Below are positions 34,289 to 34,356 of a stretch of 64,000 nucleotides of DNA, piece after piece; within the stretch, counting starts at the first letter, position 1, and each line of letters opens with the position of its first letter. The stretch is taken from the NCBI RefSeq assembly GCF_030013205.1, contig NZ_CP122648.1; one strand, 5' to 3'. A program made the translations under genes and the position numbers. This DNA is from Escherichia coli (GTDB lineage: Bacteria; Pseudomonadota; Gammaproteobacteria; Enterobacterales; Enterobacteriaceae). The notes below the pieces were generated by a model. That model did no database searches. It saw only the letters and a program-made list of their open reading frames with translations, and had not been told where the DNA came from.

Positions 34289-34356
34289 TTGTTCCAGCTT
34301 GTTCCACGTTGTACCCCTTTGTGCAATGATCGGTGTAGTCACTGGTGTAGTCATTT
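34289..34356 (+). repeat. left copy of ~60-bp imperfect direct repeat (candidate integrase arm-type sites)
   Basis: TTGTTCCACGTTGT ... CGGTGTAGTCACTGGTGTAGTCATTT; second copy at 48778-48839. Confidence 0.6.

What the first reader, a model, noticed from the sequence alone, without database searches (positions are those of the whole stretch)
34289..34356. ~60-bp imperfect direct repeats just inside both ends of the island
The left copy (34299-34356, overlapping the integrase promoter) and the right copy (48778-48839, about 65 bp from attR) share TTGTTCCACGTTGT and a tandem pair of GGTGTAGTNA motifs, in the same orientation. This is what integrase arm-type binding sites (P and P' arms) look like. 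They would specify directionality of integration and excision for this element.
Basis: seen in the sequence. Interest (0 to 1): 0.55.

Follow-up and report, generated by a model that had tools for sequence, protein, structure and literature searches.

The report
Integrase and AlpA sites in satellite arms
The two ~60-bp repeats are real and are best read as docking sites for two of the island's own proteins, its integrase and its AlpA regulator. They flank the crossover point of an E. coli phage-satellite island, which is an ordinary design, though this motif had not been reported for this integrase group.

Summary
Window 34299-34357 and 48779-48837 match at 46 of 59 positions, co-oriented, just inside a 14.7-kb island inserted in comM/yifB (core AATAGCGGAT at 34194-34203 and 48907-48916). 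The island is a Gram-negative phage-inducible chromosomal island (PICI).

The repeat is composite:
- **Motif B** is a tandem pair GGTGTAGTNA with a 12-bp period. It tracks residues in the beta-strands of the integrase's N-terminal arm-binding domain (T/S48 with A at motif position 5, K/R48 with G). Two blind predictions held.
- **Motif A** is a run of TTGTTCCACG-type units with a 10-bp period. It tracks the AlpA allele, recurs as an inverted array upstream of alpA, and resembles the experimentally mapped TorI excisionase sites of prophage KplE1.

In the five insertion-site groups measured, the two B pairs lie 212-214 bp apart around the core. That is the geometry published in 2023 for a different doubled motif in helper-embedded PICIs.

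For the TTGTTCC part it is probably wrong: those look like recombination-directionality-factor sites. No binding was tested. Overlap with the int promoter is not shown. This is a new member of a known kind, of modest interest.

The parts
34194..34203 (+). attL core (identity block AATAGCGGAT) inside the disrupted comM/yifB gene
   Evidence: Longest block shared by the left and right junctions; the comM fragments are annotated on both sides in the identical region of strain ETEC1748.
34236..34255 (+). Motif A, block A1: two 10-bp-phased units (ATGTGCCACG, TTGTTCATTA) about 35 bp from the core; proposed AlpA sites
   Evidence: An equivalent block with the island's own A variant is seen in every left arm examined from the core onward.
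34289..34328 (+). Motif A, block A2: four 10-bp-phased units (TTGTTCCAGC, TTGTTCCACG, TTGTACCCCT, TTGTGCAATG); proposed AlpA sites
   Evidence: Three phased TTGT units occur at only three places in the window (7 overlapping matches, 0.01 expected). The unit sequence covaries with the AlpA allele.
34332..34353 (+). Motif B, left pair: GGTGTAGTCA ct GGTGTAGTCA, 12-bp period; proposed integrase arm-type sites (P' arm)
   Evidence: Starts 134.5 bp from the core centre. Covaries with integrase beta-strand residues.
34380..35609 (+). int: tyrosine integrase with an N-terminal arm-DNA-binding domain
   Evidence: Pfam PF13356 at residues 4-91 (E 2.6e-17) and PF00589; phrog_1 integrase; PDB 3jtz arm domain at E 5.6e-5; RefSeq start in the identical ETEC1748 copy.
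35634..35690 (-). Inverted array of about 5.5 motif-A units between int and alpA; proposed AlpA operator
   Evidence: (D10, I2). Arrays of each island's own A variant lie upstream of alpA in L003, L006, L007, L010, L015 and L017.
35977..36165 (+). alpA: AlpA-family winged-helix regulator/excisionase, 98% identical to AlpA of EcCICFT073
   Evidence: phrog_2790 'excisionase and transcriptional regulator' at E 6.6e-18; alignment with L003; L003 carries the same proteins as the CFT073 island.
48769..48798 (+). Motif A, right-arm block: three 10-bp-phased units (TTGTGTCTAT, TTGTTCCACG, TTGTTGCATA)
   Evidence: conserved in the right arms of L001-L004.
48812..48833 (+). Motif B, right pair: GGTGTAGTTA at GGTGTAGTCA; proposed integrase arm-type sites (P arm)
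   Evidence: Ends 78.5 bp before the core centre.
48878..48890 (+). Weak IHF-like site (ATTCAATAAATTA) between the right B pair and the core
   Evidence: Matches only a relaxed consensus here. The strict WATCAANNNNTTR is found at the same offset in L003 and L004, and nothing in L012. Suggestive only.
48907..48916 (+). attR core (AATAGCGGAT)

Best explanation
The island (window about 34204-48906) is an E. coli phage-inducible chromosomal island inserted in comM. When it excises, its two ends join into an attP. In that attP a composite module, a block of motif-A units followed 19 bp later by a tandem pair of motif B, lies on each side of the crossover core.

The four GGTGTAGTNA half-sites are arm-type sites for the N-terminal arm-binding domains of the four integrase subunits. 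The catalytic domains of the same subunits hold the core.

The 10-bp-phased TTGTTC units are sites for AlpA. AlpA would coat and bend these stretches, as Xis and TorI do, and so favour the excisive complex. It would use the same recognition at the array upstream of alpA to activate its own promoter.

Shown here:
- The repeats are real.
- In five insertion-site groups the geometry is fixed.
- Both arms change in concert.
- B covaries with the integrase and A with AlpA.

Inferred:
- Physical binding by either protein.
- The bending role of AlpA.
- Any autoregulation of int.
For: Statistics:
- The pair matches at 46 of 59 positions, against 3.7e-9 pairs expected.
- The tandem B pattern occurs only at the two arms in the window.
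- It occurs exactly twice, on the + strand, in every fetched locus that holds a whole island.

Geometry:
- The right B pair ends 75.5-81.5 bp before the core centre, and the left pair starts 131.5-136.5 bp after it.
- The sum is 212-214 bp in five insertion-site groups (comM, roxA|phoQ, cspD|clpS, rcnR|thiM, fis).
- This equals the 81 + 132 bp reported for the doubled motif of helper-embedded PICIs.

Concerted change:
- Island L012 has GTGTGGTCAG at both arms.

Double dissociation:
- L007 and L012 share AlpA (85% identical) and A = TTGTTCG. They differ in the integrase N-domain (62%) and in B.
- The window island and L006 share the integrase strand residues and B. They differ in AlpA (51%) and in A.

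Residue-to-base rule:
- Integrases with LS[VA] and WYF[TS] go with A at B position 5. Those with L[EQL]I and WYF[RK] go with G.
- Two blind predictions held (L221 gave G, L224 gave A). Two WFFA integrases share a further variant, GTGTAGTCT/C.
- The AlphaFold model places residues 34-35 and 48 in strands 33-37 and 43-49.

Integrase domain:
- PF13356 and PDB 3jtz.

Motif A:
- It occurs at only three places in 64 kb, including the inverted array upstream of alpA.
- It resembles the mapped TorI sites in KplE1 attL (GTTCG, GATCG, GTCCG at a 10-bp period, in two blocks).

Published experiments on EcCICFT073 (Int 84% and AlpA 98% identical):
- AlpA activates its own promoter.
- AlpA overexpression triggers int-dependent excision without a helper phage.

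Independence from the replication module:
- A and B are unchanged while the replication gene is swapped among RepA helicase, DUF927 and primase types.
Against: - No binding data exist for this integrase or this AlpA. All evidence here is comparative.
- It rests on about seven integrase lineages and five or six AlpA alleles. These are not fully independent, because int, alpA and the arms are linked.
- In EcCICFT073, AlpA did not change expression from a Pint reporter. That is unexpected if AlpA occupies units next to the int promoter in the way TorI does, although no promoter could be located here.
- That paper treats AlpA as an activator of the island cycle, not as an excisionase.
- The helper-embedded PICI arms do not show obvious A units beside their doubled motif.
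- The IHF-like site is weak and inconsistent between islands.
Confidence: 0.66

Rival explanations
1. The whole ~60-bp repeat, TTGTTC units included, is a set of integrase arm-type sites. AlpA would play no direct part at the att arms.
For: Both motifs lie in both arms in a fixed register, with 19 bp between A and B on each side. AlpA did not affect a Pint reporter in EcCICFT073.
Against: The A variant follows the AlpA allele, not the integrase: L007 against L012, and the window island against L006. A arrays lie outside att, upstream of alpA, on the opposite strand. A units resemble mapped RDF (TorI) sites.
Confidence: 0.12
2. The assignment is reversed or involves a third party. AlpA, or an unidentified island or host protein, binds the GGTGTAGT pairs. 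This possibility was left open for the helper-embedded PICI doubled motif.
For: The authors of the 2023 paper could not decide between the integrase arm domains, AlpA and an unknown protein. No binding data exist.
Against: B differs between islands with nearly the same AlpA (L007 and L012). B is the same between islands whose AlpA is only 45-52% identical. B varies among islands living in the same host species, which argues against a host factor. The variation maps to two strand positions of the arm-binding domain and predicted two unseen cases.
Confidence: 0.1
3. The repeats act mainly as transcriptional operators, for example for integrase autorepression at the left end, or as replication or packaging signals, rather than as recombination architecture.
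For: The left module ends 26 nt before the int start codon. In KplE1, arm-type and RDF sites do repress intS.
Against: The right-arm copy has no gene start directly downstream. The fixed 212-214 bp spacing around the crossover core, across different cores, points to a recombination complex. The motifs do not change when the replication gene type changes. A separate origin-like region with its own iterons lies at 40564-40833. Autoregulation is compatible with the main explanation rather than an alternative to it.
Confidence: 0.08
4. The repeat is a chance similarity or a functionless relic of an old duplication.
For: None beyond the imperfect identity (78%).
Against: 3.7e-9 such pairs are expected by chance. 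The motif positions are conserved across at least seven insertion sites, while the sequence between the modules and the core diverges. Both arms change in concert in L012.
Confidence: 0.02

Closest known systems
Doubled motif tgTGTATTGCantgTGTATTGCa in attP of helper-embedded PICIs (NAR Genom Bioinform 2023, PMC10111431)
   Same: A tandem 12-bp-period doublet, with two co-oriented copies per attP. The reported positions are 81 +/- 2 bp upstream and 132 +/- 2 bp downstream of the attP centre. Here they are about 78.5 and 134.5 bp, and the sum is 212-214 bp in five site groups. The element type is the same (int, alpA, replication module). I confirmed the published motif and its integrase in L172.
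   Different: The sequence differs: GTGTAGTCA-type here, TGTATTGC there. That paper states the motif was not found in other PICIs, fis PICIs included. I find a different doublet, GTGTAGTCAG, at the equivalent positions in fis PICIs (L013, L014, L224). That paper left the binding protein open; the covariation here favours the integrase. The helper-embedded arms lack obvious motif-A units.
attL of cryptic prophage KplE1/CPS-53: IntS arm-type sites plus TorI (RDF) sites overlapping PintS (PLoS Genet 2010, PMC2951348)
   Same: int is transcribed outward from attL. Two blocks of RDF sites with GTTCG/GTCCG cores, the second at a 10-bp period, lie between the core and the arm-type sites next to int. 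TorI is a distant relative of AlpA (26% identity, E 1e-4). IntS has the same domain layout (21% identity).
   Different: In KplE1 the binding and the repression were shown experimentally; here nothing is tested. The KplE1 arm sites share a TAAA motif, not GTAGT. KplE1 inserts in a tRNA gene. TorI is encoded at the far end of the prophage, whereas alpA lies next to int.
Phage lambda attP: P1, P2 and P'1-3 arm-type sites with Xis, IHF and Fis sites (textbook knowledge; summarised in PMC2951348 and PMC8138268)
   Same: A heterobivalent integrase, arm sites on both sides of the core, tandem arm sites, and RDF sites next to an arm site.
   Different: The arm-binding domain belongs to a different Pfam family (PF13356, which has an extra strand and helix). 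There are 2 + 2 rather than 2 + 3 arm sites, and all are co-oriented. RDF-like units lie on both arms. int and the RDF are not co-transcribed from a common lytic promoter.
EcCICFT073, the experimentally studied E. coli PICI (ISME J 2018, PMC6092414)
   Same: Same family. L003 carries the same proteins as the CFT073 island. Its integrase is 84% and its AlpA 98% identical to the window's. It has the same A and B motifs at both arms and the same array upstream of alpA.
   Different: It inserts between roxA and phoQ (core GGACATATTT) rather than in comM, and its replication and cargo genes differ. The passages of that paper retrieved here do not describe arm repeats or AlpA sites (searching it for 'arm' and 'direct repeat' gave no hits).

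Membership tests
Arm-type sites of a heterobivalent tyrosine integrase | The integrase carries an N-terminal arm-DNA-binding domain | tested here: met
   Pfam PF13356 Arm-DNA-bind_3 at residues 4-91, E 2.6e-17. PDB 3jtz (HPI integrase arm domain) at E 5.6e-5. The AlphaFold model shows a four-stranded sheet plus helix at residues 25-87, with block-mean pLDDT 73-89.
Arm-type sites of a heterobivalent tyrosine integrase | A repeated motif, distinct from the core, on both sides of the crossover region within attP | tested here: met
   Pairs at 34332-34353 and 48812-48833, with cores at 34194-34203 and 48907-48916.
Arm-type sites of a heterobivalent tyrosine integrase | The motif is conserved with, and specific to, the cognate integrase across relatives | tested here: met
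   The motif occurs exactly twice per complete island in 11 loci. Its variants partition with integrase residues 34, 35 and 48. Two blind predictions were correct.
Arm-type sites of a heterobivalent tyrosine integrase | The integrase N-domain physically binds the motif, and the motif is needed for recombination | not testable with these tools
   Needs EMSA or footprinting and excision or integration assays.
Recombination directionality factor (Xis/TorI/AlpA-type) binding sites | The element encodes an RDF-family winged-helix protein | tested here: met
   alpA at 35977-36165 matches phrog_2790 'excisionase and transcriptional regulator' at E 6.6e-18. PF05930 is recorded for the orthologues in related loci. 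It is a distant relative of TorI.
Recombination directionality factor (Xis/TorI/AlpA-type) binding sites | Helically phased direct repeats in the att arm next to arm-type sites | tested here: met
   10-bp-phased TTGT units at 34289-34328 and 48769-48798, each 19 bp from a B pair. Compare the TorI sites I3-I5.
Recombination directionality factor (Xis/TorI/AlpA-type) binding sites | The site sequence follows the RDF allele | tested here: met
   GTTCC/GTTTC, GTTCG, GTTCA, GTCCG and GTCTA/GTTTA units go with five or six AlpA alleles, independently of the integrase type. The sample is small and the reading was by eye.
Recombination directionality factor (Xis/TorI/AlpA-type) binding sites | The protein binds the sites and is required for excision but not integration | not testable with these tools
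   The only available evidence is indirect and published. AlpA overexpression induces int-dependent excision of EcCICFT073, and AlpA activates its own promoter but not Pint.
Helper-embedded PICI doubled attP motif (PMC10111431) | Two co-oriented doubled motifs at about -81 and +132 bp from the attP centre | tested here: met
   -78.5 and +134.5 bp here. The sum is 212-214 bp in five site groups, against 81 + 132 bp.
Helper-embedded PICI doubled attP motif (PMC10111431) | Core sequence TGTATTGC, and insertion in a prophage late gene | tested here: not met
   The motif here is GTGTAGT[CT]A and the target is the chromosomal comM gene. It has the same architecture but is not a member of that clade.
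Gram-negative PICI | Unidirectional int, alpA and replication gene, an origin after the replication gene, a size near 10-15 kb, and a specific att site | tested here: met
   int, alpA, Ant-like, Icd-like, DUF4222, RepA-family helicase, ProQ/FinO and PerC genes are all on the + strand. The island is 14.7 kb. Relatives carry capsid, portal and terminase genes, and one is EcCICFT073 itself. Helper-phage induction was not tested.

The most novel reading that the evidence does not exclude
All or most Gram-negative PICI integrase clades may share one attP design. In it, an AlpA-unit block plus a doublet of integrase arm sites sits on each arm, with the two doublets about 213 bp apart. Arm-site specificity would be set by two or three beta-strand residues (T/S48 reads A, K/R48 reads G at motif position 5). 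AlpA, currently described only as the activator of the PICI cycle, would also be the recombination directionality factor, using one recognition sequence at both att arms and at its own promoter.
Probability: 0.45. Interest if true: 0.45.

Novelty: new member of a known kind. Interest (0 to 1): 0.3.

Why it matters
Arm-type sites and excisionase sites are textbook features, so the finding does not open a new category. It has three modest uses.

- **It extends a 2023 observation.** That paper reported a doubled attP motif as unique to helper-embedded PICIs. The same 81/132-bp architecture, with clade-specific sequences, is found here in other PICI integrase clades, fis PICIs included.
- **It offers an answer to a question that paper left open.** The covariation favours the integrase arm domain, not AlpA, as the protein that binds the doublet. 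It also points to candidate specificity residues that can be tested by swapping.
- **It suggests a second role for AlpA.** AlpA may act directly at the att arms as well as at its own promoter. That would explain how AlpA expression alone triggers excision of these satellites.

These islands occur in about a fifth of complete E. coli genomes (1156 of 5426), so knowing their attP grammar helps to map and engineer them.

Tried and rejected
- **Genome-contig scans:** both scans, one with the integrase protein and one with an integrase alignment, confirmed no relative. Cross-species sampling had to go through protein hits and their contigs instead.
- **IMG/VR loci:** most are cut at the int start codon, so only 18 of 80 held the left arm. 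They added new insertion sites but no new integrase/AlpA combinations.
- **Promoter upstream of int:** the consensus scan found none, and inspection by eye gave only weak candidates. The 'overlaps the promoter' claim stays open.
- **IHF consensus scan of reconstructed attPs:** only a weak and inconsistent signal near -35 in the right arm.
- **Replication iterons as an explanation for motif A:** rejected. The motifs do not change when the replication gene type changes, and an origin-like region with different repeats lies after the helicase gene.
- **H22 as a natural integrase N-terminal swap:** it turned out to be an IS3 insertion in int.
- **The structural paper on HPI/HAI7 arm domains (PMC2797237):** not held in the library.
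- **Full-text search for the motif strings:** returned only unrelated primer and miRNA papers.
- **PADLOC search of the cargo genes:** found nothing.

Full report
**Observation.** TTGTTCCACGTTGT occurs exactly at 34299-34312 and 48779-48792. GGTGTAGTNA occurs exactly at 34332, 34344, 48812 and 48824, all on the + strand. The repeat finder reports the pair as 59 nt, 34299-34357 against 48779-48837, 78% identical without gaps. That is 46 of 59 matches. A binomial model expects 3.7e-9 such pairs in the 15.4-kb region, and six Markov-1 simulations gave maxima of 34-36. It is the best direct repeat in the region.

**Setting.** The island runs from about 34204 to 48906. It is bounded by a 10-bp identity block, AATAGCGGAT, at 34194-34203 and 48907-48916, and it splits the comM/yifB gene. 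Its genes all read rightward:
- a tyrosine integrase (34380-35609)
- an AlpA-family protein (35977-36165)
- Ant-like, Icd-like and DUF4222 proteins
- a RepA-family helicase
- ProQ/FinO and PerC proteins
- a few head- and packaging-related genes

The int-alpA module matches 1156 of 5426 complete E. coli genomes. Relatives carry capsid, portal and terminase genes. One relative, L003, has the same protein accessions as the island of strain CFT073 between roxA and phoQ, which is EcCICFT073, the experimentally studied Gram-negative PICI. The window island is therefore a PICI-type phage satellite.

**The repeat is composite.**
- *Motif B* is the tandem pair of GGTGTAGTNA with a 12-bp period.
- *Motif A* is a run of 10-bp-phased units beginning TTGT (TTGTTCCAGC, TTGTTCCACG, TTGTACCCCT, TTGTGCAATG on the left; TTGTGTCTAT, TTGTTCCACG, TTGTTGCATA on the right). 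It lies 19 bp upstream of B in both arms.

Three phased TTGT units occur at only three places in the 64 kb: the two arms, and an array of about 5.5 units on the opposite strand at 35634-35690, between int and alpA (7 overlapping matches, 0.01 expected). A shorter A block (34236-35255 would be wrong; it is 34236-34255) lies nearer the left core. The generic tandem B pattern occurs only at the two arms (2 matches, 0.01 expected).

**Related islands.** It was run, and the repeats are present. They occur in the same orientation in islands at the same comM site (L001, L002). They also occur at six other insertion sites: roxA|phoQ, cspD|clpS, rcnR|thiM, beside fis, and two more seen only in IMG/VR contigs. 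In every fetched locus that holds a whole island, the generic tandem occurs exactly twice, once just upstream of int and once near the right end.

The distance from the end of the right pair to the core centre is 75.5-81.5 bp. The distance from the core centre to the start of the left pair is 131.5-136.5 bp. The sum is 212-214 bp in all five site groups measured. The cores differ completely between groups, while the arms stay alignable.

**Which protein reads which motif.** The integrase has an N-terminal arm-DNA-binding domain (PF13356, residues 4-91, E 2.6e-17). This domain is related to the solved arm domain of the Yersinia HPI integrase (PDB 3jtz, E 5.6e-5). Comparison of islands gives a double dissociation:
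- L007 and L012 have nearly the same AlpA (85% identical) and the same A unit (TTGTTCG). Their integrase N-domains are 62% identical and their B motifs differ (GGTGTAGTNA against GTGTGGTCAG). In L012 the new variant is present at both arms.
- The window island and L006/L007 share B and the integrase strand residues. Their AlpA proteins are 51-52% identical and their A units differ (TTGTTCCACG against TTGTTCGnnn).

Across more distant integrases, down to 54% identity, B does not follow overall divergence. It follows two or three residues:
- LS[VA] with WYF[TS] goes with GTG-N-A-GT.
- L[EQL]I with WYF[RK] goes with GTG-N-G-GT.

I then chose four integrases whose arms I had not seen. The K48 integrase (L221) had GTGAGGTCAG and the T48 integrase (L224) had GTGTAGTCAG, both as predicted. 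Two WFFA integrases, from Serratia and Hafnia, shared a further variant, GTGTAGTCT/C. An AlphaFold model places residues 34-35 in strand 33-37 and residue 48 in strand 43-49 of the N-domain sheet. That this sheet faces the DNA is inferred from the lambda and Tn916 arm domains, not shown here.

**Motif A and AlpA.** In each island the A variant in the arms reappears in an array upstream of alpA, usually on the opposite strand. Published work on EcCICFT073, whose AlpA is 98% identical to the window's, gives three relevant results:
- AlpA activates its own promoter.
- AlpA does not change a Pint reporter.
- Overexpressing AlpA without a helper phage triggers int-dependent excision and replication.

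The closest experimentally mapped parallel is the attL of prophage KplE1. There, five sites for the TorI excisionase lie in two blocks between the core and the IntS arm sites next to intS. Their cores are GTTCG, GATCG and GTCCG, and the second block has a 10-bp period. I confirmed that sequence in the K-12 genome. TorI is a distant relative of AlpA. I therefore read the A units as AlpA sites, serving both excisive recombination and autoactivation. This is an inference. The unchanged Pint reporter is mild evidence against close coupling to the int promoter, and I could not locate that promoter.

**Comparison with what is known.** A 2023 study of helper-embedded PICIs reported a doubled motif, tgTGTATTGCantgTGTATTGCa. 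It has two co-oriented copies per attP, 81 +/- 2 bp upstream and 132 +/- 2 bp downstream of the centre. The authors left open whether the integrase arm domains, AlpA or another protein binds it, and stated it was absent from other PICIs, fis PICIs included. I recovered that motif and its integrase in IMG/VR contigs.

The window island has the same architecture with a different sequence. The fis PICIs I examined carry GTGTAGTCAG doublets at the equivalent positions. The feature is thus a new member of a known kind. A full-text search for the motif strings found nothing relevant.

**Rivals.**
- *All of the repeat is integrase arm sites.* This is contradicted by the AlpA-linked variation of A and by the A array outside att.
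- *AlpA or a host protein reads B.* This is contradicted by the dissociations, and by variation of B among islands living in the same host species.
- *Replication or packaging signals.* This is unlikely, because A and B stay the same while the replication gene type changes, and a separate origin-like region lies at 40564-40833.
- *Chance.* This is excluded.
- *Integrase autoregulation through the left pair.* This is compatible with the main explanation but untested.

**Limits.**
- Nothing here shows binding.
- The lineages sampled are few, and int, alpA and the arms are linked, so covariation could partly reflect co-inheritance. The two recombinant contrasts and the blind predictions are the main protection against that.
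- Assignment of A units was by eye.
- The IHF-like site in the right arm is weak.

**Verdict.** This is an ordinary kind of feature with a modest new angle.

Noticed in passing
window 40564-40833: A perfect 38-nt inverted repeat (40564-40601 and 40788-40825, 186 nt apart) with three AAAAGTGGGG-type repeats lies just after the RepA-family helicase gene. It is probably the island's replication origin.
   Followed up: no
window 47574-47835: A cluster of AAAAAGTGTCAA repeats in both orientations (families D9, D11, D16, D20 and I19) lies directly after a 175-aa ORF (47046-47573) whose N-terminus weakly matches terminase small subunit and Cox-like HTH families. It may be a packaging or regulatory site.
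   Followed up: partly
L012 21204-21236; L013 about 12020-12052; L222, L223 and L224 just upstream of alpA: In islands with an extra ORF between int and alpA, a GC-rich hairpin lies immediately before the alpA start codon. In L012 and L013 it is followed by a T-run. The hairpin contains GTTCG/GAACG, the motif-A core. This could be a terminator or attenuator under AlpA control.
   Followed up: partly
L013, L014, L224 (fis-site PICIs): The 2023 paper says the doubled motif is absent from fis PICIs. These fis PICIs nevertheless carry a doubled GTGTAGTCAG. L013 and L014 have it at the same geometry as elsewhere (135 and 79 bp from the core centre). L224 shows it in the left arm only, because the right arm was not fetched.
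   Followed up: yes
L014 20395-20415 against 9955-9975: The right arm carries GTGCAGTCA while the left arm carries GTGTAGTCA. Either motif position 4 is tolerant, or the arms are of mixed origin.
   Followed up: no
window 43593-46994, compared with L001: The window island is about 3 kb longer than the island of strain ETEC1748, although the left 2 kb and the right arm examined are identical. The extra stretch includes a protease-like gene pair and a 679-aa protein with a transglycosylase-like C-terminal region (phrog_7694). There were no PADLOC hits.
   Followed up: partly
window 34002-34211 and 49009-50265: The island interrupts comM/yifB (Mg-chelatase-like AAA ATPase), leaving it annotated as two pseudogene fragments in the identical ETEC1748 region. 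The insertion therefore inactivates the target gene rather than restoring it.
   Followed up: no
L005 16562-17890: In strain OkiPb01686 an IS3-family element has inserted into the 5' part of the PICI int gene, separating the arm sites from most of the gene. This island is probably immobilised.
   Followed up: no
window 37011-38252: A 413-aa ORF ends in an Icd-like cell-division-inhibitor domain (NF033153, residues 365-408). RefSeq annotates only a short Icd-like protein at the corresponding place in ETEC1748. The long form may be a mechanical ORF rather than a real gene.
   Followed up: no
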